Below, piece after piece: positions 1-37,044 of a stretch of DNA of 37,044 nucleotides. How positions within the stretch are numbered: the first letter of the stretch is position 1; each line of letters opens with the position of its first letter. Source of the stretch: a virus. Position numbers and translations under genes: made by a program. The notes under the pieces are model-generated. The model was not told the origin of the DNA. It worked only from the letters and a program-made list of their open reading frames with translations, and searched no databases. The stretch covers positions 1-37,044 of the IMG/VR virus record IMGVR_UViG_3300045988_021519, one strand, 5' to 3'.

Positions 1-212
1 CAGCAGAAGCCAAGGCAGCAGAAGCCAAGGCAGCAGAAGCCAAGGCAGCAGAAGCAGCAGCAGAAGCCAAGGCAGCAGAAGCCAAGGCAGCAGAAGCCAA
101 GGCAGCAGAAGCCAAAGCAGCAGCAGAAGCCAAAGCAGCAGCAGAAGCCAAAGCAGCAGAAGAAGCCAAAGCAGCAGCAGAAGCCAAAGCAGCAGAAGAA
201 GAAGAAGAAGAA
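1..212 (+). repeat. Coding tandem repeat, 15-nt unit GCAGCAGAAGCCAAG (with 12/18-nt variants) ending in (GAA)6; continues from 36966..37044
   Basis: Direct reading shows near-perfect head-to-tail copies. Lys codons are AAG in proximal copies and AAA in distal ones. Bases 1-54 are identical to 36991-37044. Confidence 0.95.
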
Positions 213-401
213 CCCGAAACCGAAACAGATGTCACGACTTACACTATTGATGACTGTAAGTCGTGGGCGATGAAAGCGCTAAACGCTAAGAAACGCCCGA
301 TTGTACAGGAAGCTTTTGAAAGCGTAGGCGCGTCCAGTTTCCCGACGTTGAAGGAAGAGATGTTTAACGATTTTGTTGCATACATTTCAAGCCGTTTGTA
401 A
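1..401 (+). CDS. 3' part of an ORF that wraps around the window ends (5' part at 36729..37044); Ala/Glu/Lys repeat (AAEAK)n protein with a small C-terminal domain
   Basis: The frame is open from base 3 to TAA at 399-401. Translation is AEAKAAEAK...EEEEEEPETETDVTTYTIDDCKSW...YISSRL*. It joins exactly with the ORF left open at 37044 (g + ca = GCA). The stop overlaps the next start (TAATG). Absent from the ORF track because it crosses the window edge. Confidence 0.75.
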   Translation, partial: AEAKAAEAKAAEAKAAEAAAEAKAAEAKAAEAKAAEAKAAAEAKAAAEAKAAEEAKAAAEAKAAEEEEEEPETETDVTTYTIDDCKSWAMKALNAKKRPIVQEAFESVGASSFPTLKEEMFNDFVAYISSRL

Positions 402-1600: not shown

Positions 1601-1630
1601 TTTGAAGTTTAAAATAAAGCAATATCTTTG
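1601..1630 (+). promoter_or_regulatory. Bacteroidota-type promoter (-33 TTTG, -7 TATCTTTG)
   Basis: TTTG at 1601-1604, an 18-nt spacer, then TATCTTTG at 1623-1630, about 30 nt upstream of the ATG at 1661. Confidence 0.55.
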
Positions 1631-4363: not shown

Positions 4364-6754
4364 ATGGAAAAATACACCTTATCACTTGCAGGTTCTTCGG
4401 CGTCTCTGAAATGGAAGGCCGTACGCATGACTTGGGAAGCGTTTTTGGAAAGACTGGGAACGCCCGTTATCACTAACGAAACGGTACGCGAGTTCGATAG
4501 ACTGGACAAGCCTGCCAAATCGTCTTTGAAGGACGTAGGCGGATTCATGGCTGGCGAGCTTTCCGGTCCACAAAGACTTAAGAAAGCGGTTATGTCCCGC
4601 TCTATGATTACGCTAGATGTAGACTTTGGCGACGATCTTTTCCCGTTCGATTTTGCGGATCGCTTTCCGGGCGTAGCCGCTGCCGTCTACACTACTAGAT
4701 CAGACCGCCCCGGATCACGCCGTTACCGTCTTATCATGCCTTTCAAAGAAGAGGTTACAGACGTTACAATGTACGAAGCCGCGGCGCGTAAAGTAGCCGA
4801 GTTGTTAGGTATAGACCTATTCGATAAAACGACCTTCCAACCGGAACGTATGATGTACTGGCAATCTCTTTCCAAAGACCAAACAGGGCTTTTCGAAGTA
4901 TTCGAAGGCGAGCCGATCAGCGCGGAGTATCTAATAGGTTTGTACGGAGACAACGAAGAATGGCGCGACGTGCGCAAATGGGCGTTCCACTCCGAGACGG
5001 AACGTGATACCCGTTCTATCATTAGTAAAGAGATGGCGAAAGACCCCCGCGATAAAGAGGGCCTAGTAGGCGCGTTTTGTCGCTCGTACACGATACAGGC
5101 AGCAATAGACAAGTACCTTTCAGACGTTTACACAGAAGCAGAAAACGGCCGTTATACGTACGTTCTTGGATCGGGCGCTGCCGGGCTGGTAGTGTACGAC
5201 GACGTGCTTTGTTTTTCTCACCACTCAACCGACCCGATCGGAGACGGACACGCATACAACGCTTATGATTTGGTGCGTGTGCACAAGTTTGGGCACCTGG
5301 GTAAGGAAGACAGCACCCGCGAGATGAACAAGCTAATTTGCGCCGATAAAGAATGCGTTAAAGATATGGTAGCCGTGGACGATGATCTAGCCGACTTCGA
5401 GGAGTACACGGACGAGGTTAAGAGCGACGCACAGACCGCCGCCGAACTTGTTTGGGACTTGGACAGAAAAGGCGATAAATTATGTACCGTTCGCAACTTC
5501 GTTAATGCCTTCAAATGTGATCCGCTATTAAATGATCTGCTAGCATACGACTTGTTTCTCGATACGATCGTGTACACCCGTACGCCGTTCTTCTCGAAAA
5601 ACATAAAGAAGGGCGATATGTTGGACGACACAGCAGTAGCGATTATCCGTGGACGCATTGAGGTTTTGCACGGTATTTATAATGACAGCAAATTAAACGA
5701 CGCGTTGGAAAAGGTTTGCAGCGAAAATGCTTTCCATCCTATCAAAAAATATCTAGAGGCGCAAAGGTGGGACGGTGTGAAGCGTATTGATAATTTCTTG
5801 GTTGACTACATGGGCGCAGAGCCTAGTATATATGTTTCCGAGGCGTTCCGTAAAATGTTGGTTGCGGCTGTTACTAGAGTTTATGAGCCGGGCCACAAAT
5901 TTGATACGGCGCTTGTTATGTATTCAGGACAGGGCGCGGGAAAGTCCACGCTTATACAGGCGTTGTCTAAAGGATGGTTCAACGATTCATTAACGGACGT
6001 GTCCGGGCAGAAAGCGTATGAAGCAATACAGCATGCTTGGATCGTGGAGTTAGCCGAGTTGTCAGCCCTTCGCCGTTCGGACGTGGAAGCTACTAAGAAC
6101 TTCATAAGCAAACGTGAAGATACGTACCGTAGTGCATACGCCCGCCGGGTAAAGACACACCGCAGACAATGCGTATTTTTCGGGTCTACAAACGACGATG
6201 AGTTTTTGAAGGACAAGACCGGAAACCGCCGTTTCTTCCCGATAGAAGTTTGCGCCAACAAGAACACGCACAAGCTGTTTGAAAAGTCTTTTGAGGCGGT
6301 GGTAGACCAACTTTGGGCGGAAGCAATGGAACTGTACATGTTGGGCGAAAGTCTTGTTTTGTCTGACGAAGCCGAAGCGATCGCTAACGAAGGCCGCAAA
6401 GAATTTACAGAAGAAAGCCCGCTAGTAGGTATTATAGAGAACTATCTAGATAAGCTTTTCCCGGCTGACTACGAAGACCGCACCGAACAACAACGAGCCG
6501 ACTTCCTAGCGGGATCATTGGATGAGATCGGTGACACAGTTAAAAACGAGTTCTGTTTAATGGAGCTTTGGGTAGATGCCCTGGGGCGCAGGAAAGAAGA
6601 TTATACAAGCGCGAAGGGCCGCGAACTTGCAGCGGCTATGAGACAATTAGGCGGATGGTATAAAGGAAAGTTAAAAAGAACTAAATTATACGGCGTACAA
6701 GTAGTTTATATCCGGGAAAGAAGCAAGGAAAGCAAAAAATTACTATCTTTGTGA
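4364..6754 (+). CDS. Primase-helicase (N-terminal primase/polymerase-like domain, C-terminal VirE/D5-type P-loop NTPase)
   Basis: 796 aa. N-terminal acidic motif ITLDVDFGDD; Walker A YSGQGAGKST; Walker B-like WIVELAEL; downstream FFGSTND and GNRRFFPIEV, typical of VirE/D5-like helicases. Confidence 0.9.
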   Translation: MEKYTLSLAGSSASLKWKAVRMTWEAFLERLGTPVITNETVREFDRLDKPAKSSLKDVGGFMAGELSGPQRLKKAVMSRSMITLDVDFGDDLFPFDFADRFPGVAAAVYTTRSDRPGSRRYRLIMPFKEEVTDVTMYEAAARKVAELLGIDLFDKTTFQPERMMYWQSLSKDQTGLFEVFEGEPISAEYLIGLYGDNEEWRDVRKWAFHSETERDTRSIISKEMAKDPRDKEGLVGAFCRSYTIQAAIDKYLSDVYTEAENGRYTYVLGSGAAGLVVYDDVLCFSHHSTDPIGDGHAYNAYDLVRVHKFGHLGKEDSTREMNKLICADKECVKDMVAVDDDLADFEEYTDEVKSDAQTAAELVWDLDRKGDKLCTVRNFVNAFKCDPLLNDLLAYDLFLDTIVYTRTPFFSKNIKKGDMLDDTAVAIIRGRIEVLHGIYNDSKLNDALEKVCSENAFHPIKKYLEAQRWDGVKRIDNFLVDYMGAEPSIYVSEAFRKMLVAAVTRVYEPGHKFDTALVMYSGQGAGKSTLIQALSKGWFNDSLTDVSGQKAYEAIQHAWIVELAELSALRRSDVEATKNFISKREDTYRSAYARRVKTHRRQCVFFGSTNDDEFLKDKTGNRRFFPIEVCANKNTHKLFEKSFEAVVDQLWAEAMELYMLGESLVLSDEAEAIANEGRKEFTEESPLVGIIENYLDKLFPADYEDRTEQQRADFLAGSLDEIGDTVKNEFCLMELWVDALGRRKEDYTSAKGRELAAAMRQLGGWYKGKLKRTKLYGVQVVYIRERSKESKKLLSL

Positions 6755-6824
6755 TACCGAATTAAAACAATACTTTCTTTTCTAATTTTTAAGGTTAATA
6801 CTTTTAGGGTGGTTTTTCAGTTAA

Positions 6825-6860
6825 AAAGTCTTTCGTAGTGATACGCGAGACTTTATTTTT
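6825..6860 (+). terminator. Putative intrinsic terminator ending the early/replication operon
   Basis: Stem AAAGTCT (6825-6831) pairs with AGACTTT (6848-6854), with extra inner CG pairs, followed by ATTTTT. Confidence 0.5.
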
Positions 6861-6921
6861 GTTAATATACTAAAGTTTTTTGAGAAAAGTTTTGGTAGTT
6901 CATAATTAAGTCGTATCTTTG
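6861..6921 (+). promoter_or_regulatory. Bacteroidota-type promoter cassette, copy 1 (homologous to 35961..36021)
   Basis: TTTG 6891-6894, a 19-nt spacer, TATCTTTG 6914-6921. The 61 nt align without gaps to 35961-36021 at about 80% identity. Confidence 0.7.
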
Positions 6922-6960
6922 AAATGTCAAAAGGAAATAAACCAATTAAAAATTAGAATT

Positions 6961-9058: not shown

Positions 9059-9103
9059 CTAAGAGCGTTTAATGCAGATCAAAGTTAAGAGTTTACCCTA
9101 TAT

Positions 9104-9134
9104 TTTGGTAGTATGAAAAGAACCCGTATCTTTG
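9104..9134 (+). promoter_or_regulatory. Bacteroidota-type promoter cassette, copy 2
   Basis: TTTG 9104-9107, a 19-nt spacer, TATCTTTG 9127-9134. The stretch 9125-9168 is 44/44 identical to 6912-6955. Confidence 0.7.
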
Positions 9135-9174
9135 AAATGTCAAAAGGAAATAAACCAATTAAAAATTAAAGAAT

Positions 9175-9367: not shown

Positions 9368-9410
9368 TAACCCGGGCGGGTAACACCGCCCATAACACCC
9401 AAAAGATATG
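9368..9410 (+). repeat. Intergenic hairpin element, copy 1
   Basis: TAACCC-GGGCGG-GTAACA-CCGCCC-ATAACACCCAAAAGATATG. Stem GGGCGG (9374-9379) pairs with CCGCCC (9386-9391). It is homologous to 9633-9675. Confidence 0.8.
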
Positions 9411-9632
9411 AAAGCAACTATCGAATTAACAAGAAGAACCGCTCTAGAGGATGTAATAATCAGAAATGACAATTCCGAAAAATCACGGATGATCAAGGAA
9501 AAACAAAGAGCGCTTGAAAACGCTAGAGAAAACGCCGAGTATTACCGGTCCATAGGGCAAAATGAGTTTGCAGATAATGAAGCTAGCAGGGCGCGTTTAT
9601 TGGAAAGACAAATCAAATCATTAAAAAATTAA
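9408..9632 (+). CDS. hypothetical coiled-coil protein (74 aa)
   Basis: The ATG is embedded at the 3' end of hairpin element copy 1. The sequence is charged and helical. Confidence 0.6.
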   Translation: MKATIELTRRTALEDVIIRNDNSEKSRMIKEKQRALENARENAEYYRSIGQNEFADNEASRARLLERQIKSLKN

Positions 9633-9675
9633 TAACCCGGCGGGGTAACACCCGCCATAACACCCAAAAGATATG
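9633..9675 (+). repeat. Intergenic hairpin element, copy 2
   Basis: TAACCC-GGCGGG-GTAACA-CCCGCC-ATAACACCCAAAAGATATG. Stem GGCGGG (9639-9644) pairs with CCCGCC (9651-9656). Two stem positions are swapped relative to copy 1, with compensating changes. Confidence 0.8.
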
Positions 9676-10110
9676 AAAAAGTTAATCAGTATTTTAGCAG
9701 TAGTTTTGTTATCAGTTAGCGCAATGGCGCAAGTATCAACCGCAAGCGGGAGTCTAAAAACGCTTAAGTCTTTCCGCCTGGGAGTTTGTAAGATCGTGGA
9801 AGTCACGAAGGGCGACGCGGTAACCTATCAGATCACCGGACAAGCAGCCGGAACAACCTCAATAGAATTGAATGTAGCGTTAGGAGATGCGGACAAGGCG
9901 GTTACGACGCTATTAAGTCTGGCCGAGTACAAACCATCAAGTAGCGACGAAGTTGTAAACCTCAACAACCCAGGGGATCACACTGCGCAGTATTGGAAAC
10001 TTAATGCGGTTTGGATGATCCAAAGTACAGGAAAGCAATTCACCCTTAACGTCTCTAGGGGCGAATTAAAGAAGATGGCAGAAGCAATTAATAAATCTCT
10101 AAACAAATAA
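9673..10110 (+). CDS. secreted/periplasmic protein with cleavable signal peptide
   Basis: Starts MKKLISILAVVLLSVSAMA|QVST, a classic n-h-c signal peptide with an AxA site and Gln at +1. Confidence 0.7.
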   Translation: MKKLISILAVVLLSVSAMAQVSTASGSLKTLKSFRLGVCKIVEVTKGDAVTYQITGQAAGTTSIELNVALGDADKAVTTLLSLAEYKPSSSDEVVNLNNPGDHTAQYWKLNAVWMIQSTGKQFTLNVSRGELKKMAEAINKSLNK

Positions 10111-15697: not shown

Positions 15698-15838
15698 AGA
15701 AAAGTTTAATTTTAACGGTATTTTAGCTAAAAAGCCCATTTTTGACAAAAAAGTAGTGAAAACGTCTTTTACATTGTCATTTCATGTTTTACGGCTGACC
15801 CGCCCCACAAGACGCAGAACGCATTTTTCAAGTTTTTG

Positions 15839-16064
15839 ATGTAAATGGTTAAAATTTGTTTCTTTTACACTTAACTTGCTTATTTATAGTACTTTATACT
15901 GTAATATAGTGTATTTGTAAAAGATGTAATGATATATACTAATTAGTAACTATTAATAGGTAATATATATAGTTAACATAAATATACTATTGTTATTTTA
16001 AATAATAAATATATGGTATTTTTTAAATATATTCTATAGGGAAACTGCATTTTTACCTTTACAT
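15839..16064. repeat. AT-rich non-coding element, copy A (paralogue of 35618..35841)
   Basis: Conserved blocks sit at the same offsets as in copy B: ATGTAAAT...TTAAAATTTGT.TCTTT.ACACTTAAC (33/40 identical) at offset 0; TAGTACTTTAT at 48; TGTAAAAGATGTAA at 77; TAG.GAAACT at 198; TTACCTTTACAT at 214. The core of roughly 120 bp is almost pure A/T. Confidence 0.85.
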
Positions 16065-16100
16065 CGTTTACAATTGGGCTGAAACGCCCTGTTCATCGGG

Positions 16101-16169
16101 GTTTTGGGTGTGAATGATAGTTTTGGTAGGCGGAAAGATGGCGTTTTGGGCGGAAAAAGCGTATTTTTG
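16101..16169 (+). promoter_or_regulatory. Putative late promoter region with three phased GTTTTGG boxes
   Basis: TTTTGG at 16102, 16121 and 16144 (19 and 23 nt apart). TTTTGG(TA)GGCGGAAA occurs twice. A -7-like TATTTTTG lies at 16162-16169, 23 nt before the ATG at 16192. The -33/-7 spacing is non-canonical. Confidence 0.4.
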
Positions 16170-16191: not shown

Positions 16192-16881
16192 ATGGCTACA
16201 AAGAAGAAAGAAATTATAGAAACGAAGGAAGCGGTACAGCTGCCAAAGCCCGAGAAGGTTAGGCCGGATTACGCGCACTTCCAATTAGCTCCCACATACG
16301 CGACCACTAAGTATCTGGCGGATTCGTTTGAATACACCAAGTGCTACCAGGTCGCTACGGCGCATTATGGTATGACGCCTATCTGGCAGGAGCCCCAAGA
16401 ACTTTGGGAGGCGTACGCGATTTATTCGGCGTGGTGCGAGGCTACGCCCGTTATAACACAAGAGGCAGTAAAGTCCGGTAACATGGCTGGAACGCTCTAC
16501 GAAGTGCCAAAGAAGCACCTTCAATCGGAGGGCGAGTTCTGTATGTTCCTGGGGGCGAATCCCATATACTTAAGCAACCGCCGCTCCACCTACGCCGAGA
16601 ACCTCAAGGAGTTCGACCTGACGATATGCGCGGACTTCATAGCGGTGATCGACAGGATACGCGAAGCAATCGCACAGGACCTTGATCAGGGCGCGACGGT
16701 GGGACAGTTCGACGCCAACTACGTTCGTGCTCTACGGGGCATTAAAACGCAAATGGACTACACTTCTAACGGCGAAGCCATCAAGGGCGGTTTGACTGTA
16801 AATGTCACCGACCCGAAAGTACGCGCTAAGGTTAGTTCGATTAAGAACTTCAAGAAGGATCATAAAGAGGAGGATAAGTAA
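16192..16881 (+). CDS. putative terminase small subunit (gp3-like DNA-packaging protein)
   Basis: Lies immediately upstream of TerL and is coupled to it (TAATG). It has a basic N-terminus, and the segment PQELWEAY..YSAWCEA...SEGEFCMFLGANPIYL resembles gp3-type small terminases. The track start GTG 16114 lies in the promoter region; ATG 16192 is preferred. Confidence 0.55.
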   Translation: MATKKKEIIETKEAVQLPKPEKVRPDYAHFQLAPTYATTKYLADSFEYTKCYQVATAHYGMTPIWQEPQELWEAYAIYSAWCEATPVITQEAVKSGNMAGTLYEVPKKHLQSEGEFCMFLGANPIYLSNRRSTYAENLKEFDLTICADFIAVIDRIREAIAQDLDQGATVGQFDANYVRALRGIKTQMDYTSNGEAIKGGLTVNVTDPKVRAKVSSIKNFKKDHKEEDK

Positions 16882-30373: not shown

Positions 30374-30910
30374 ATGGCCTGTATAAAGACATTAAATAAA
30401 GCAATTACCTACGACTGCCAAGCTGGCAGCGTAGGTATCGCTGAAATGTATCTGATTAACTTTGACGATGTAACAGCAGCGACCGTTGACAGTAATAACA
30501 GTATTTCGGCCATTACATTGAAGTCGGGGGCAAAGACAGTCCCGGTTGAGTGTTACAAGAACGGTGCGAAGTTAACAGAAGCTTTAAAGTTATCAGATGT
30601 TTCGGCAGGTTTGGATCAGTCCGTTATGTTTACCTTATATGATAAAAGTTTATCTTTGAGTAGTAACATTATGGCGTCACTTTTGAACGGGCGTTTTATG
30701 GCGGCCATTAAGTTAAACGACATTAACGCGGCAGCGGTTATGGCGGGCTTTAAATGTGGGCTTGAAATTTCTCAAGCTGATATGGATTCTAACGCGGCAG
30801 GTGGTTTTACTACAATAACGATTAAAACGCCGGACGATGCTAGAGGAGAAAATAGAATAACAATTGCTTCGGCAGCGTGGACAACGATCGCAGCCGCAAA
30901 ACTAGCTTAA
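30374..30910 (+). CDS. structural protein paralogue 1 of 3 (candidate tail tube/major tail protein)
   Basis: 178 aa. It shares M(A/G)C(I/L).K, (D/N)C at residues 14-15, LNG.F, G..CGL and GGF(T/S)T(I/V)T(I/L)(K/S)T(P/S)(D/E) with the next two ORFs. Confidence 0.7.
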   Translation: MACIKTLNKAITYDCQAGSVGIAEMYLINFDDVTAATVDSNNSISAITLKSGAKTVPVECYKNGAKLTEALKLSDVSAGLDQSVMFTLYDKSLSLSSNIMASLLNGRFMAAIKLNDINAAAVMAGFKCGLEISQADMDSNAAGGFTTITIKTPDDARGENRITIASAAWTTIAAAKLA

Positions 30911-30913
30911 AAT

Positions 30914-31447
30914 ATGGGATGCTTAAATAAATTAAATAAAGCGATCTTAGTTGATTGCGACGGAGGTGCAACAGGTGTAGCCGAGATGCTTCTTATCAAC
31001 TTTGCCGATATTGCTACAAAGAGCGTAGCGGATGGTATTGCCACTATAACACTAGCCGCTGGCGCTAAGGCCGTGCTGGTTGAGAGTAACAAGAAGGGTG
31101 TAAACGCTACGGAAGAAATAAAGACTAACGATCACGCGCCAACGGCGTTGACGCAGGCGGTTACGTTCACACTGTATCAGAGTGACGTAAACGGAACTGT
31201 GATAGCGAATCAGATTTTAAATGGTACGTTCCTAGCGCTTGTTAAAACTAAAGCCGGGAGGCTCCGTGTTTACGGGTATATCTACGGTTTGAGTATGTCT
31301 GCATTTTCCGAGGACTTGAACGCAAACGGCGGTTTTACTACCATCACGTTATCGACATCGGAAAATGTTATCGGCGAGGCGCGTGTAAGCTTCGCAGATG
31401 CTAGTTATGCAACATTGAGAGCCGCGGCGATCGTAACAGAATCATAA
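30914..31447 (+). CDS. structural protein paralogue 2 of 3
   Basis: 177 aa, collinear with paralogues 1 and 3 (MGCLNKLNKAILVDCDGG...NANGGFTTITLSTSE). Confidence 0.7.
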   Translation: MGCLNKLNKAILVDCDGGATGVAEMLLINFADIATKSVADGIATITLAAGAKAVLVESNKKGVNATEEIKTNDHAPTALTQAVTFTLYQSDVNGTVIANQILNGTFLALVKTKAGRLRVYGYIYGLSMSAFSEDLNANGGFTTITLSTSENVIGEARVSFADASYATLRAAAIVTES

Positions 31448-31460
31448 AGGAGGATATTAT

Positions 31461-32003
31461 ATGGCATGTATAAAAAAAATATCGGCAGATATTACGTATA
31501 ATTGTGAACTTCTCGCCGATGCAGGCGGGACTGGGGAAATAGACGAGGCTATTATCATCAACTCTTCGGACATTTCCACCATATCAGAAACAGGAGGGGT
31601 CGGTACTATAACTATGCTAACCGGAAAAAAGGGGTACATAATTAACTCCGTAAACAGCTCTATTATGTACCAAGACGCCATCAAAGTGAATGATACAACC
31701 CCTCCGGGAGAAGATCAGAGCGTTATTATAAAGATTTTACGATCTGGCGGATCACACTTGGAGTATAGGCTGGCAGTTAACCAGTTGTTAGGGGGAAATT
31801 TCCGGGCAGCCTTCAAAACTAAAACAGGTAATTATCTTTTGGCAGGGGCTTTTTGCGGCTTGGAAGCATCCGACCTTGCAACCGATTCAAGTACTGGGGG
31901 CTTCTCAACGGTGACACTTAAAACGCCGGAAGCGTCAACGGGGGATAGACTGTTAACGCTAGCTAAGGCAGATTACGACGGCCTGAAGATACCGAAAGTT
32001 TAA
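31461..32003 (+). CDS. structural protein paralogue 3 of 3 (most divergent)
   Basis: 180 aa (MACIKKISADITYNCELL...STGGFSTVTLKTPE), preceded by AAGGAGGA. Confidence 0.7.
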   Translation: MACIKKISADITYNCELLADAGGTGEIDEAIIINSSDISTISETGGVGTITMLTGKKGYIINSVNSSIMYQDAIKVNDTTPPGEDQSVIIKILRSGGSHLEYRLAVNQLLGGNFRAAFKTKTGNYLLAGAFCGLEASDLATDSSTGGFSTVTLKTPEASTGDRLLTLAKADYDGLKIPKV

Positions 32004-35535: not shown

Positions 35536-35568
35536 CCTTTCATCTTTTATAAATGCCCTTTCATCTTT
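35536..35568 (+). repeat. Direct repeat CCTTTCATCTTT x2, 21 bp apart
   Basis: 35536-35547 and 35557-35568 are identical 12-mers, in non-coding DNA directly after the last late gene. Confidence 0.85.
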
Positions 35569-35583
35569 CGCACTTGAAAACCT

Positions 35584-35614
35584 AAAACGCTGATTCATAA
35601 CGAGTTGGCGTTTT
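35584..35614 (+). terminator. Weak terminator-like hairpin after the late operon
   Basis: AAAACGC (35584-35590) pairs with GCGTTTT (35608-35614) across a 17-nt loop. A marginal call. Confidence 0.3.
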
Positions 35615-35617
35615 TGC

Positions 35618-35841
35618 ATGTAAATAATTAAAATTTGTATCTTTCACACTTAACCCACTAATAACTAGTACTTTATCTATCAATATATATCTAATGTAAA
35701 AGATGTAAAGATAATATATAGAGCTAACAGAGAAATATTAGATTATATATAAAATATGTAAATATATGAATTAATATGTGAATGAATTTATAGAAATATT
35801 TAAATATAAACTAATAGAGAAACTATCCCTTACCTTTACAT
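35618..35841. repeat. AT-rich non-coding element, copy B (paralogue of 15839..16064)
   Basis: It has the same ordered conserved blocks and offsets as copy A. ATGTAAA-type boxes are at 35618, 35694, 35703 and 35756 (forward) and 35834-35841 (inverted). Confidence 0.85.
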
Positions 35842-35960
35842 TTCACCTGTTTTTTCCACTTAACTAGCTGATACGCACACAGTTAGGGCGTTAAACATCC
35901 GCTTAAAAAGGGCTATTCGTTGTTTACGCTGTTATCAAACCTTCAAAACCGTTAATCAGA

Positions 35961-36021
35961 GTTAAAATACTAAAGTTTTTTGGGAAATAGTTTTGTAGTT
36001 CAAAATAAAGCTGTACCTTTG
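35961..36021 (+). promoter_or_regulatory. Bacteroidota-type promoter cassette, copy 3 (early promoter)
   Basis: TTTG 35992-35995, an 18-nt spacer, TACCTTTG 36014-36021. Homologous to 6861-6921. Confidence 0.7.
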
Positions 36022-36037
36022 TAACATCGAAAGAGAA

Positions 36038-36235: not shown

Positions 36236-36565
36236 ATGGCAGCAATAGACATTTATAAGTTAGAAGCGTTCTTTTATAAGATTATACGGGAGAAGGTTAA
36301 AGCGTGCAAAACGATAGGCGAGGCTACAATGCTATACGGCTATCCGGGCAACTCGAAAATAGTGTTCGATGATTTGCAACGAGAAGAAGAAGCCGGAAAA
36401 AAGTTTAAATATAAAATCCGAGGCTTCATAATTCCACACGCCAAACGTTACGAAACTATTTTCGAACAGGCCCGGTGCGCCGCTTATTCCGATCACGTAC
36501 AAACCTATCGAACGTCTGACAAATTGAGTTTTAAATTTAATGAAAAAATGAAATGGAAAAAGTAG
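36236..36565 (+). CDS. hypothetical early protein (109 aa)
   Basis: ORF in the early operon; its 3' end overlaps the next gene by 13 nt. Confidence 0.6.
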   Translation: MAAIDIYKLEAFFYKIIREKVKACKTIGEATMLYGYPGNSKIVFDDLQREEEAGKKFKYKIRGFIIPHAKRYETIFEQARCAAYSDHVQTYRTSDKLSFKFNEKMKWKK

Positions 36566-36732
36566 AACTTATCACAGTGGCGGAAGCCGCCCGGTTAGCG
36601 GAGTGCACCGAAAATGCTGTACGCTACCAGCTCAACGCCGGAAAACTCACACGGTACGAGAATGGGACGGGCAAAATCAGAGTGAACAAAAATGAACTAT
36701 TAGAAACAATTTTTAATTTTAAGAAAAAATGA
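36553..36732 (+). CDS. excisionase-type (HTH_17/MerR-like) DNA-binding protein (59 aa)
   Basis: MEKVELITVAEAARLAECTENAVRYQLNAGKLTRYENGTGKIRVNKNELLETIF matches the classic L(T/S)..EAA..L......V....+.G.L........+I...+L pattern. The stop overlaps the next ATG (ATGA). Below the track size cutoff. Confidence 0.75.
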   Translation: MEKVELITVAEAARLAECTENAVRYQLNAGKLTRYENGTGKIRVNKNELLETIFNFKKK

Positions 36733-37044
36733 AAGTAGTAATCGAATTAATCGGAAATGAGAGTAGAGAAAGTTTGTTGGCAACGTCTAATTATTTGCGC
36801 GAGCTGGCGGGAGAAACCATACCGGAAGTAACGGAACGTAAAACCGATCTTGACAAGTTAGCGGACGCTGTTGTAGAAGCAACAAAAGTGGAGGCAGAAG
36901 AGAAGCCTAAAACAGTGTCCGAAATGGTAGAATCTGAACGCGCAAAAACCCGCGCTAAACGTTCGGCAGAAGCAGCAGCAGAAGCCAAGGCAGCAGAAGC
37001 CAAGGCAGCAGAAGCCAAGGCAGCAGAAGCCAAGGCAGCAGAAG
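36729..37044 (+). CDS. 5' part of the wrap-around (AAEAK)n protein gene (continues at 1..401)
   Basis: ATG 36729, MKVVIELIGNESRESLLATSNYLRELAGE...SERAKTRAKRSAEAAAEAKAAEAK..., open to the last base of the window. Confidence 0.75.
   Translation, partial: MKVVIELIGNESRESLLATSNYLRELAGETIPEVTERKTDLDKLADAVVEATKVEAEEKPKTVSEMVESERAKTRAKRSAEAAAEAKAAEAKAAEAKAAEAKAAE
36966..37044 (+). repeat. Start of the coding 15-nt tandem repeat that continues at 1..212
   Basis: Four full CAGCAGAAGCCAAGG units plus 9 nt. The stretch 36991-37044 is identical to 1-54. Confidence 0.95.

What the first reader, a model, noticed from the sequence alone, without database searches (positions are those of the whole stretch)
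15839..16064. Paired ~225-bp AT-rich elements with collinear conserved boxes (copy A, upstream of the late operon)
The only two long non-coding regions of the genome each contain one copy of the same element (A 15839-16064; B 35618-35841). Conserved blocks sit at almost identical offsets: a 40-nt left box, 33/40 identical (ATGTAAAT..TTAAAATTTGT.TCTTT.ACACTTAAC), at 0; TAGTACTTTAT at 48/49; TGTAAAAGATGTAA at 77/77; TAG(G/A)GAAACT at 198/197; and TTACCTTTACAT at 214/212. Between the last two groups lies a core of about 120 bp that is almost pure A/T and not conserved in sequence. The heptamer ATGTAAA recurs. In A it is forward at 15839 and 15916/15924, and inverted at 15766-15774 and 16057-16064. 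The inner forward box and the terminal inverted box form an inverted repeat around the AT core. Conserved length, conserved boxes and a free-to-vary AT-rich spacer fit a protein-bound architectural element. Options are an origin with iterons plus a DNA-unwinding element, a looping or bending regulatory site controlling the early and late promoters, or a packaging-recognition site (copy A lies 130 bp before terS). Two copies about 19.8 kb apart on a 37-kb circle, each at a module boundary, is not an arrangement I can match to a described phage system.
Basis: partly seen in the sequence, partly recalled or inferred. Interest (0 to 1): 0.75.

Follow-up and report, generated by a model that had tools for sequence, protein, structure and literature searches.

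The report
Twin replication-origin-like elements in phage
A 37-kb gut Bacteroides phage carries two copies of an element built like a known type of replication origin, and it encodes a matching initiator helicase, so these are most likely the phage's two replication origins.

Summary
Copies A (about 15737-16072) and B (about 35541-35871) align collinearly (blastn E 5e-18). The repeated unit is an 11-bp box, TGTAAAAGATG, not the heptamer ATGTAAA. Half of all box-like sites in the window fall in these two spots. Each copy has upstream boxes, two tandem forward boxes, a roughly 100-bp core of 12-14% GC, and one or two inverted boxes.

The paired element sits in the same two gaps (before terS, and before the early operon) in 11 of 12 complete related genomes examined and in 20 of 20 paired metagenomic contigs, from Bacteroides and Phocaeicola phages. 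The box sequence differs by lineage, in at least nine classes.

The window's 796-aa protein is a primase-polymerase fused to a helicase. It is homologous to the SaPI1 Rep1 initiator (E 2e-73; TM 0.82, including the C-terminal winged helix). Published Rep origins have iterons in opposite orientation on either side of an AT-rich region, which is the anatomy seen here. The winged-helix domain diverges sharply where boxes differ. TerS does not, and the recognition helix of a small HTH protein stays conserved.

Best reading (about 0.6): two SaPI-type origins. This is a new variant of a known kind. Nothing is shown experimentally.

The parts
15737..15793 (-).
   Evidence: 1-2 mismatches to TGTAAAAGATG
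15840..15869 (.). Copy A: inverted pair. Forward half-box TGTAAATGGTT, then spacer TTAAAATTTGT, then reverse box (TGTAAAAGAAA on the minus strand).
   Evidence: the same forward box / T-rich spacer / reverse box layout in other lineages
15872..15897 (+). Copy A: block conserved across lineages, TAACTTGCTTA + TTTATAGTACTTTAT (TAACTCGCTGA..TTATAG in relatives)
15916..15935 (+). Copy A: two tandem forward boxes (TGTAAAAGATG, then degenerate TGTAATGAT; 9-bp period) abutting the AT core
   Evidence: tandem pairs at the same place in most lineages
15933..16035 (.). Copy A: AT core, 11.7% GC, not conserved between A and B; proposed DNA-unwinding element
16036..16045 (+). Copy A: ATAGGGAAAC, a motif at the right edge of the core that recurs in nearly all lineages examined
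16053..16072 (-). Copy A: two reverse boxes (TGTAAAGGTAA, TGTAAACGATG on the minus strand), inverted relative to the tandem pair across the core
35541..35572 (-). Copy B: two upstream reverse boxes (35541-35551, 35562-35572)
35619..35648 (.). Copy B: inverted pair (forward half-box, TTAAAATTTGT spacer, reverse box)
35651..35676 (+). Copy B: TAACCCACTAA .. TAGTACTTTAT conserved block
35695..35714 (+). Copy B: two tandem forward boxes (TGTAAAAGATG, TGTAAAGATAA)
35714..35813 (.). Copy B: AT core, 14% GC; holds TGTAAAT/TGTGAAT half-boxes and is well conserved among 30 close relatives
35814..35823 (+). Copy B: ATAGAGAAAC edge motif
35829..35841 (-). Copy B: reverse box (TTACCTTTACAT, which reads ATGTAAAGGTAA on the minus strand)
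35861..35871 (+). Copy B: second TAACTAGCTGA motif after the right box; in relatives it is the 5' arm of a small hairpin (TAAC..GTTA)
4364..6754 (+). Gene for the proposed initiator: AEP primase-polymerase (residues 1 to about 190), SF3 helicase homologous to SaPI1 Rep1 (386-712), and C-terminal winged helix (about 733-790)
16162..16169 (+). terS (late) promoter -7 box TATTTTTG without a -33 TTTG, about 90 bp after copy A; terS ATG at 16192
35992..36021 (+). First early promoter, canonical Bacteroides type (TTTG-N18-TACCTTTG), about 150 bp after copy B

Best explanation
Each copy is a replication origin of the kind used by self-loading SF3 initiator helicases (the SaPI Rep/PriRep type). The phage's 796-aa primase-helicase would recognise the 9-11-bp boxes (iterons, TGTAAAAGATG in this phage) through its C-terminal winged-helix domain. 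Boxes on the two sides of the 12-14% GC core point in opposite directions. This would let one hexamer assemble on each side, melt the core and load around single strands. The fused AEP primase domain would then prime synthesis for the phage's own family-A polymerase. The genome holds two complete copies about 180 degrees apart, each just upstream of the first promoter of a transcription module (early, late).

Shown: the anatomy; its conservation in relatives; the lineage-specific boxes; homology of the protein to SaPI1 Rep1, including the winged helix.

Inferred: that this protein binds the boxes; that the core melts; that replication starts there; that both copies fire.
For: (1) Anatomy. Each copy has two tandem forward boxes, a roughly 100-bp core at 11.7%/14% GC, and one or two inverted boxes, plus further boxes upstream. 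Box-like sites are about twice the chance number, and half of them lie in the two elements.

(2) The 796-aa protein, residues 386-712, matches SaPI1 Rep1 (PDB 7PDS) with E 2.1e-73. An AlphaFold model of residues 380-796 (pLDDT 88.9) superposes on 7PDS with TM 0.81-0.84 over about 430 columns, essentially its whole length, including the C-terminal helix-helix-hairpin. The N-terminal domain has an AEP PrimPol fold (6zp9, E 1.6e-5).

(3) PMC9371898 states that SaPI Reps are initiators as well as helicases and bind iterons through a C-terminal winged helix. The ori has an AT-rich region at its centre with at least two iterons on each side pointing in opposite directions. Two hexamers are thought to load, one on each side.

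(4) The paired element is in the same two gaps in 11 of 12 complete relatives and 20 of 20 contig pairs, with different boxes by lineage but the same box in both copies of one genome.

(5) The winged-helix domain diverges out of proportion where boxes differ. L003 vs L183: helicase core 83%, C-terminal domain 35%. Classes K2 vs K3: core 85-91%, C-terminal domain 60-68%. Same-class pairs: core 90-95%, C-terminal domain 83-89%. In L183 vs L003 this domain is the most divergent 50-aa window of any well-conserved protein, whereas TerS's lowest window is 60%.

(6) Exact inverted matches of 11 nt or more across the AT core occur in 9 of 40 A loci and 31 of 72 B loci, against 0 of 240 coding controls.

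(7) Distant 48-52-kb phages with a 40%-identical helicase carry an element of the same design.
Against: There is no experimental evidence of binding, melting or initiation for any phage of this family.

SaPI origins lie immediately downstream of rep. Here the copies are about 5.5 kb upstream and 9.1 kb downstream of the helicase gene.

The boxes are 9-11 bp, against 5-6 nt for SaPI iterons.

The covariation between the C-terminal domain and box class is confounded with phylogeny and rests on a few pairs. L248 vs L251 share a box class yet differ 23% in this domain, and several small proteins of unknown function are equally divergent.

Motifs conserved in all lineages (TAACTCGCTGA, ATAGRGAAAC) have no counterpart in the SaPI model and are unexplained.

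In two lineages the box orientation about the core is flipped.

GC skew is uninformative because all genes are on one strand.

Both elements sit 90-170 bp before promoters, so a transcriptional role cannot be excluded.
Confidence: 0.6

Rival explanations
1. An architectural or regulatory element for transcription. A phage DNA-binding protein occupies the boxes upstream of the first early and first late promoter, and the AT core serves as bendable or UP-like DNA. Together they would switch expression from early to late, or insulate the two modules on the circle. This could coexist with an origin role, for example through autoregulation by the initiator.
For: Both copies lie 90-170 bp upstream of promoters: the -7 box at 16162 and the canonical promoter at 35992-36021. 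The distant phage L181 has its element about 100 bp before an early promoter. The terS promoter lacks a -33 element, as activator-dependent promoters often do.
Against: No boxes lie at the other promoters of the same type (1623, 6914, 9127). The distance from the boxes to the -7 element varies between copies and lineages. No canonical promoter lies inside the element. The small HTH protein is missing from lineages K5 and K8, which keep the element, and its recognition helix (TENAxRY) is conserved across different box classes. A 100-bp core at 12-14% GC flanked by inverted iterons is the specific signature of Rep-type origins.
Confidence: 0.15
2. Only one copy is the working origin. The other is an accessory site that binds the same initiator. 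It could act as an enhancer needed in cis, like P4 crr, or as a fork barrier that triggers the switch to concatemer synthesis, as proposed for SPP1 oriR.
For: SPP1 has two similar initiator-binding sites, of which oriL initiates and oriR is proposed to stall forks (PMC6316719). Copy B has only one clear right-hand box. Distant phages show a single element, at the B-like position, within the 22 kb examined.
Against: Both copies keep the full design (upstream boxes, tandem pair, AT core, inverted box) in most lineages. Nothing in the sequence singles out one copy as incomplete.
Confidence: 0.15
3. A packaging recognition (pac) site bound by the small terminase, duplicated in the genome.
For: Copy A ends 120 bp before terS. 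The family appears to package by headful: PhageTerm found no fixed ends for the related cluster alpha phages (10.1101/2020.03.04.977157).
Against: Copy B is about 20 kb from terS. TerS is 77% identical, with a lowest 50-aa window of 60%, between lineages whose boxes differ completely. In distant phages the element sits at the early operon. Two pac sites half a genome apart are not a described arrangement (own knowledge).
Confidence: 0.05
4. A mobile or selfish repeat (MITE-like), or a recombination hot spot with no role for the phage.
For: The element is short, AT-rich, has inverted repeats and occurs in two copies. Assemblers break at it.
Against: It is always at the same two syntenic positions across phages whose TerL is only 57-80% identical. 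There are no other copies in the window. The boxes change in concert in both copies while the cores differ, which indicates selection by a trans-acting factor.
Confidence: 0.03

Closest known systems
SaPI replication origins with Rep / PriRep self-loading SF3 helicases (S. aureus pathogenicity islands; PMC9371898)
   Same: The initiator is homologous (E 2e-73; TM 0.82, including the winged helix). In PriRep5, as here, a primase is fused to the helicase. The origins have short repeated iterons, an AT-rich centre, at least two iterons on each side in opposite orientation, and iteron sequences that differ between elements.
   Different: Here the element is in a virulent Bacteroidota siphophage, not a satellite of a Firmicute. 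There are two copies per genome. They lie 5.5 and 9.1 kb from the helicase gene rather than abutting it. The boxes are 9-11 bp rather than 5-6 nt. The element has extra motifs conserved in all lineages (TAACTCGCTGA hairpin arm, ATAGRGAAAC) and extra box clusters upstream.
Bacillus phage SPP1 oriL / oriR (PMC6316719)
   Same: A virulent siphophage has two similar origin regions kilobases apart on the circular map. Each has repeats plus an AT-rich unwinding element, both are bound by one phage initiator, and one lies in an intergenic region among the late genes.
   Different: The SPP1 initiator gp38 works with a loader and a DnaB-type helicase. Its repeats are described as direct repeats. oriL lies inside gene 38. 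The two sites are about 13 kb apart.
Satellite phage P4 ori and crr with the alpha protein (own knowledge, not checked here)
   Same: One polypeptide combines primase, an SF3 helicase and a C-terminal DNA-binding domain. The same iteron occurs in two separate clusters kilobases apart, and both are needed in cis.
   Different: As recalled, P4 crr is a pair of direct 120-bp repeats and is not a second complete origin. P4's primase is not of the AEP type.
Papillomavirus E1 and polyomavirus large-T origins (own knowledge)
   Same: Inverted initiator sites next to AT-rich DNA direct the assembly of two SF3 hexamers.
   Different: These are eukaryotic viruses with a different origin-binding domain fold and a single origin.

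Membership tests
SaPI-type (Rep/PriRep) iteron origin | The encoded initiator is an SF3 helicase of the Rep family with a C-terminal winged-helix domain | tested here: met
   phmmer to 7PDS E 2.1e-73; Foldseek TM 0.81-0.84 over about 430 columns, 33-34% identity; the model ends in helix-helix-beta-hairpin
SaPI-type (Rep/PriRep) iteron origin | Multiple short iterons (6-12) form the origin | tested here: met
   Six to nine box-like sites per copy: sites with up to 3 mismatches plus degenerate second units read from the sequence. The unit is 9-11 bp, longer than the 5-6 nt of SaPI iterons.
SaPI-type (Rep/PriRep) iteron origin | AT-rich region at the centre, with at least two iterons on each side pointing in opposite directions | tested here: met
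   Copy A has 2 forward boxes, an 11.7% GC core and 2 reverse boxes. Copy B has 2 forward boxes, a 14% GC core and 1 clear reverse box. The same holds in other lineages.
SaPI-type (Rep/PriRep) iteron origin | The origin lies immediately downstream of the rep gene | tested here: not met
   The helicase gene is at 4364-6754. The copies are at about 15737-16072 and 35541-35871. No boxes lie near 6754-6919.
SaPI-type (Rep/PriRep) iteron origin | Iteron specificity is matched by the initiator's C-terminal domain | tested here: inconclusive
   The C-terminal domain diverges disproportionately between box classes, but the pairs are few and confounded with phylogeny.
SaPI-type (Rep/PriRep) iteron origin | The initiator binds and melts the origin and drives replication from it | not testable with these tools
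   Needs EMSA or footprinting, permanganate probing and replication assays.
Two-origin phage (SPP1 oriL/oriR type) | Two similar regions of repeats plus an AT-rich unwinding element at distant positions in one genome | tested here: met
   SPP1 description in PMC6316719
Two-origin phage (SPP1 oriL/oriR type) | gp38-type origin-binding protein with a loader and a DnaB-type helicase | not tested
   The larger early proteins (Pfam) and the small ORFs (PHROGs) were scanned and no such proteins appeared, but no dedicated search was made.
pac site recognised by TerS | A single site in or next to terS whose sequence tracks the TerS DNA-binding domain | tested here: not met
   There are two copies, one of them 20 kb from terS. 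TerS is 77% identical between lineages with different boxes.
Bacteroides primary-sigma promoter | TTTG at -33 and TAnnTTTG at -7, with 17-21 nt between them | tested here: not met
   None inside either element. The nearest are at 16162 (-7 box only) and 36014.
MITE-like mobile repeat | Copies at non-syntenic sites, with terminal inverted repeats and target-site duplications | tested here: not met
   The element is at the same two syntenic gaps in 11 of 12 complete genomes and in all 20 contig pairs.
Known RNA family | A match to an Rfam covariance model | tested here: not met
   No hits at gathering thresholds over the whole window.

The most novel reading that the evidence does not exclude
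Both copies are active origins, and the same initiator-origin complexes also set the timing of gene expression. Each origin sits at the head of one transcription module, so occupancy or firing of the copy before terS would license the late promoter, which lacks a -33 element (replication-coupled late transcription). Alternatively, the second copy could act as a programmed barrier that switches replication from circle-to-circle to concatemer synthesis. The circle would then be divided into an early and a late replichore that coincide with the two transcription units.
Probability: 0.15. Interest if true: 0.75.

Novelty: new variant of a known kind. Interest (0 to 1): 0.55.

Why it matters
This family (the ARB25/SJC01-like cluster alpha and its Bacteroides and Phocaeicola relatives) makes up a large share of cultured gut Bacteroidales phages. 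Searches of the held paper library found no description of a replication origin for any of them.

The proposal gives a concrete, testable origin-initiator pair with natural specificity variants (at least nine box classes). That would be useful for building Bacteroides replicons, for origin-decoy resistance, and for studying how winged-helix initiators change specificity.

It would also extend the SaPI Rep mechanism from staphylococcal satellites to virulent phages of another phylum, and add a second example of a two-origin phage besides SPP1.

There is a practical consequence too. The repeat breaks assemblies and yields half-genome contigs with matching ends in IMG/VR, which can pass as complete circles.

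Tried and rejected
- **Rfam scan of the window:** nothing found.
- **Pfam, PHROGs and NCBIfam on small early ORFs and on the ORFs flanking the elements:** almost no annotation, so no independent candidate binder emerged.
- **Whole-protein identity comparison between SJC15, BT681P2 and BF1-2:** the genomes are too divergent overall to single out one protein that tracks the box.
- **Automatic element finding with a right-edge regex or the lowest-GC window:** too brittle, so elements were located by self-blastn and read by eye.
- **Footprinting among close relatives:** overall identity is too high to discriminate. It showed only that the right-hand boxes vary while staying box-like, and that the copy-B core is conserved.
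- **Genome-wide enrichment of TAACTNGCTKA and ATAGRGAAAC:** not enriched. They are meaningful only through their conserved position.
- **GC skew:** rises monotonically with no inflection because all genes share one strand.
- **Collection scan for the distant phage's box pair, to ask whether that group also has two copies:** the pattern was too unspecific and the scan was wasted.
- **Literature search for P4 ori/crr details:** nothing usable, so P4 is cited from memory.
- **Small HTH protein (36553-36732) as the box binder:** rejected. It is absent from two lineages that keep the element, and its recognition helix is invariant across box classes.

Full report
**What the window is**

The window is a circularly permuted assembly of about 36.9 kb. 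Its ends overlap inside a 15-nt tandem repeat. All genes lie on the + strand.

It belongs to a siphophage of Bacteroides. Nineteen GenBank phages of B. ovatus, B. kribbi and B. koreensis match the region around copy A at 85-91% identity, and each has at least two matching places. About 130 further phages of Bacteroides, Phocaeicola and Parabacteroides share the large terminase at 56-80% identity.

The early half encodes these proteins:
- a DUF2800 nuclease
- an Enc34-type ssDNA-binding protein
- a family-A DNA polymerase
- a 796-aa VapE-domain protein
- a VRR-NUC nuclease
- an SNF2 helicase
- a Dam methylase

The late half starts with terS (ATG at 16192) and terL.

**Check of the observation**

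A and B align collinearly. Self-blastn gives 15832-16064 against 35610-35841 at E 4.9e-18. This is the only long-range direct repeat apart from the end overlap.

The cores are 11.7% and 14% GC.

The repeated unit is better described as an 11-bp box, TGTAAAAGATG, which relative L174 shows cleanly. With up to two mismatches it occurs 24 times in the window against 12.35 expected (no shuffle reached 24). Twelve of these lie in 15737-16072 and 35541-35758. None lies at the other promoters.

The order of features in both copies is:
1. two or three reverse boxes
2. an inverted pair: forward half-box, TTAAAATTTGT, reverse box
3. a TAAC..GCT..A / TTATAGTACTTTAT block
4. two tandem forward boxes with a 9-bp period
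5. the AT core
6. ATAGRGAAAC
7. one or two reverse boxes

The elements therefore reach about 100 bp further left than reported.

**Relatives**

I fetched 11 complete relatives. I also fetched 80 IMG/VR loci upstream of terL, 80 downstream of the last late gene, and 80 around the VapE gene.

All 20 contigs for which I held both regions have a shared element in the two gaps. So do 11 of the 12 complete genomes, counting the window. Parabacteroides phage PM21P1 shows only short shared motifs.

The design is constant but the box differs by lineage:

| Class | Box | Genomes or loci |
|---|---|---|
| K1 | TGTMAAAGAT | this window and its close relatives |
| K2 | TGTMATAGAT / GTCACAGAA | B. caccae phages |
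| K3 | GTCACAGATG with GTAATAGATG | L170 |
| K4 | GTAATAGATG | L018, L171 |
| K5 | TGCACAGATG | BU241P2 |
| K6 | GGATAGAT | SJC15, BT681P2 |
| K7 | TGCATAGATG | BF1-2, L040, L172 |
| K8 | GGAACA | Phocaeicola phages |
| K9 | TGGCACAG | L183 |

Within one genome both copies use the same box, while the AT cores differ. That pattern is what a phage-encoded, sequence-specific binding protein whose specificity drifts would produce. It argues against a host factor as the box reader.

Exact inverted matches of 11 nt or more across the core occur in 9 of 40 A loci and 31 of 72 B loci, against 0 of 240 coding controls.

Two motifs are conserved in all lineages: TAACTCGCTGA (in relatives, the 5' arm of a small TAAC..GTTA hairpin) and ATAGRGAAAC at the right edge of the core. 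I cannot explain them.

**The candidate binder**

Residues 386-712 of the 796-aa protein match chain A of PDB 7PDS with E 2.1e-73. 7PDS is the SaPI1 Rep1-DNA complex (PMC9371898).

An AlphaFold model of residues 380-796 (mean pLDDT 88.9) ends in a strand, two helices and a beta-hairpin. It superposes on all six 7PDS chains with TM 0.81-0.84 over 428-442 columns, which is essentially the full length including the C-terminal domain.

The N-terminal 385 residues model with pLDDT 84. Their only significant structural match is the AEP domain of the cyanophage S-2L primase-polymerase (E 1.6e-5).

The protein is therefore a primase-polymerase fused to a Rep-type SF3 helicase with a winged-helix tail, the same plan as PriRep5 of SaPI5.

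**Why that matters**

PMC9371898 states the following about SaPI Reps. They are both helicases and initiators. A winged helix in the C-terminal domain recognises 5-6-nt iterons. Six to twelve iterons form the ori, with an AT-rich region near the centre. At least two iterons on each side point in opposite directions. [quoted passage not shown]

Apart from box length and position, that is a description of the element found here.

**Covariation**

I aligned 26 orthologues of the protein and compared identity in three parts: the primase part, the helicase core (386-700) and the C-terminal domain (733-785).

| Comparison | Box classes | Helicase core | C-terminal domain |
|---|---|---|---|
| L245-L168, L002-L245, L002-L168 | same (K2) | 90-95% | 83-89% |
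| L002, L168, L245 vs L170 | different (K2 vs K3) | 85-91% | 60-68% |
| L003 vs L183 | different (K5 vs K9) | 83% | 35% |

In L183 vs L003 that domain holds the most divergent 50-aa window (32%) of any protein that is otherwise at least 75% identical. TerS's lowest window is 60%.

The small HTH protein (36553-36732) is not detectable in lineages K5 and K8, which keep the element. Its TENAxRY helix is the same in classes with different boxes.

This favours the primase-helicase over TerS and the HTH protein, but it is indirect. The pairs are few and related, and the C-terminal domain evolves fast even within a class (L248 vs L251: 99% core, 77% C-terminal domain). Several small proteins of unknown function are also divergent.

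**Other readings**

- **Promoter inside the element.** I scanned for the Bacteroides promoter consensus. Full promoters lie at 1623, 6914, 9127 and 36014. Sites with only a -7 box lie at 16162, 25728 and 28316. None is inside the elements.
- **Regulatory role.** The elements sit 90-170 bp before the first late and first early promoters, at variable distance. A regulatory role beside the origin role cannot be excluded.
- **Packaging.** For the related cluster alpha phages PhageTerm found no fixed ends, which fits headful packaging. A pac role is unlikely, given copy B's position and TerS's indifference to box class.
- **RNA.** Rfam finds nothing.
- **Mobile repeat.** Strict synteny argues against it.

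**Beyond the family**

Phages of 48-52 kb whose helicase is only 40% identical carry one element of the same design about 5.5 kb upstream of the helicase gene and about 100 bp before an early promoter. It has a GTAAACA/AGAAACA tandem pair, an AT core, TAGAGGGGA, and then inverted TTGTTTCT TTGTTTCT TGTTTAC. That position corresponds to copy B, so copy A may be the derived duplicate. I could not test whether those phages have a second copy (one search failed).

**Comparison with known systems**

The element works like a SaPI origin and meets that family's anatomical and protein criteria. It fails on position relative to rep, and it differs in box length, copy number and host or virus type.

The two-copy arrangement has a precedent in SPP1 oriL/oriR and, more loosely, in P4 ori/crr (from memory).

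Searches of the held library found no paper describing an origin for these phages. One genome announcement mentions only a 'repetitive gene 21/22 intergenic space' that was hard to assemble.

**Verdict**

The most likely meaning is two Rep-type replication origins (confidence about 0.6), and this is a new variant of a known kind.

It would be of moderate interest to phage replication specialists. It also bears on the practical use of gut Bacteroides phages and on virome assembly.

Noticed in passing
window 1-243 and 36936-37044: The window ends overlap (48-126 = 36966-37044, 97%) inside a 15-nt tandem repeat (GCAGAAGCCAAGGCA..). The repeat encodes Ala/Glu/Lys repeats of an early ORF that spans the ends. 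The record is therefore a circular or permuted assembly of about 36.9 kb, and the repeat number may be collapsed.
   Followed up: partly
window 1601-1630, 6861-6955, 9074-9168, 35961-36033: Four copies of an early/middle promoter cassette (TTTG-N18/19-TAnnTTTG) with a conserved leader. The cassettes at 6890-6955 and 9103-9168 are 88% identical. Late promoters (16162, 25728, 28316) have only the -7 box.
   Followed up: partly
window 9368-9413 and 9633-9678: A 46-nt direct repeat (91%) containing a GC-rich hairpin (CCCGGGCGGGTAACACCGCCC), placed just before two successive ORF starts. Function unknown.
   Followed up: no
window 30374-32003: Three tandem paralogous genes of about 178 aa (repeat families D3 and D7) in the late region. 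Relatives annotate them inconsistently as head-tail adaptor or holin.
   Followed up: no
L041/L148, L042/L142 (IMG/VR contigs 3300045988_009419 and _015664, 21,028 bp); also _011011, _005964: Contigs of about 21 kb hold only the late half. They start in copy A and end in copy B, with 26-50 identical terminal bases. These are probably assembly breaks at the repeat that can be mistaken for complete circular genomes.
   Followed up: partly
L174 19630-19663: This contig ends inside copy A, just before the AT core, with a Nextera adapter sequence (CTGTCTCTTATACACATCT). This is adapter contamination, and perhaps a coverage drop at the AT core.
   Followed up: no
L181 4000-4260 (also L180, L185, L188, L190): Distant 48-52-kb phages (helicase 40% identical) have one element of the same design with GTAAACA/AGAAACA boxes, about 5.5 kb upstream of the helicase gene and about 100 bp before an early promoter.
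   Followed up: partly
L004 20450-20900 and 37600-38150; L249: In the B. thetaiotaomicron phages the reverse box reads CTATCCAC, close to the DnaA box TTATCCACA. This is probably coincidence, but a host DnaA contribution in that lineage is not excluded.
   Followed up: no
L248, L251, L247 (Phocaeicola phages); L183 15900-16250: Box orientation about the AT core is flipped relative to the window: reverse boxes on the left and a forward tandem pair on the right. The inverted arrangement is kept but its polarity is not.
   Followed up: partly
window 35750-35800: The AT core of copy B is almost invariant among 30 close relatives, more so than the right-hand box. It contains ATATGTAAAT and ATATGTGAAT half-boxes, so the core of B may hold extra weak sites.
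   Followed up: no
L246 (Parabacteroides phage PM21P1) 17380-17990 and 34520-34930: The two gaps share only short motifs (TGTATAATAACTTT, GCAGCACACA) and a weak AT core. The element is reduced or replaced in this lineage.
   Followed up: partly
L001 (PQ571266.1) 1-141 and 36658-36798: The GenBank record of phage BKO1-1 carries a 141-bp exact terminal duplication that starts about 110 bp upstream of copy A. This is most likely an assembler overlap, not a real terminal repeat.
   Followed up: no
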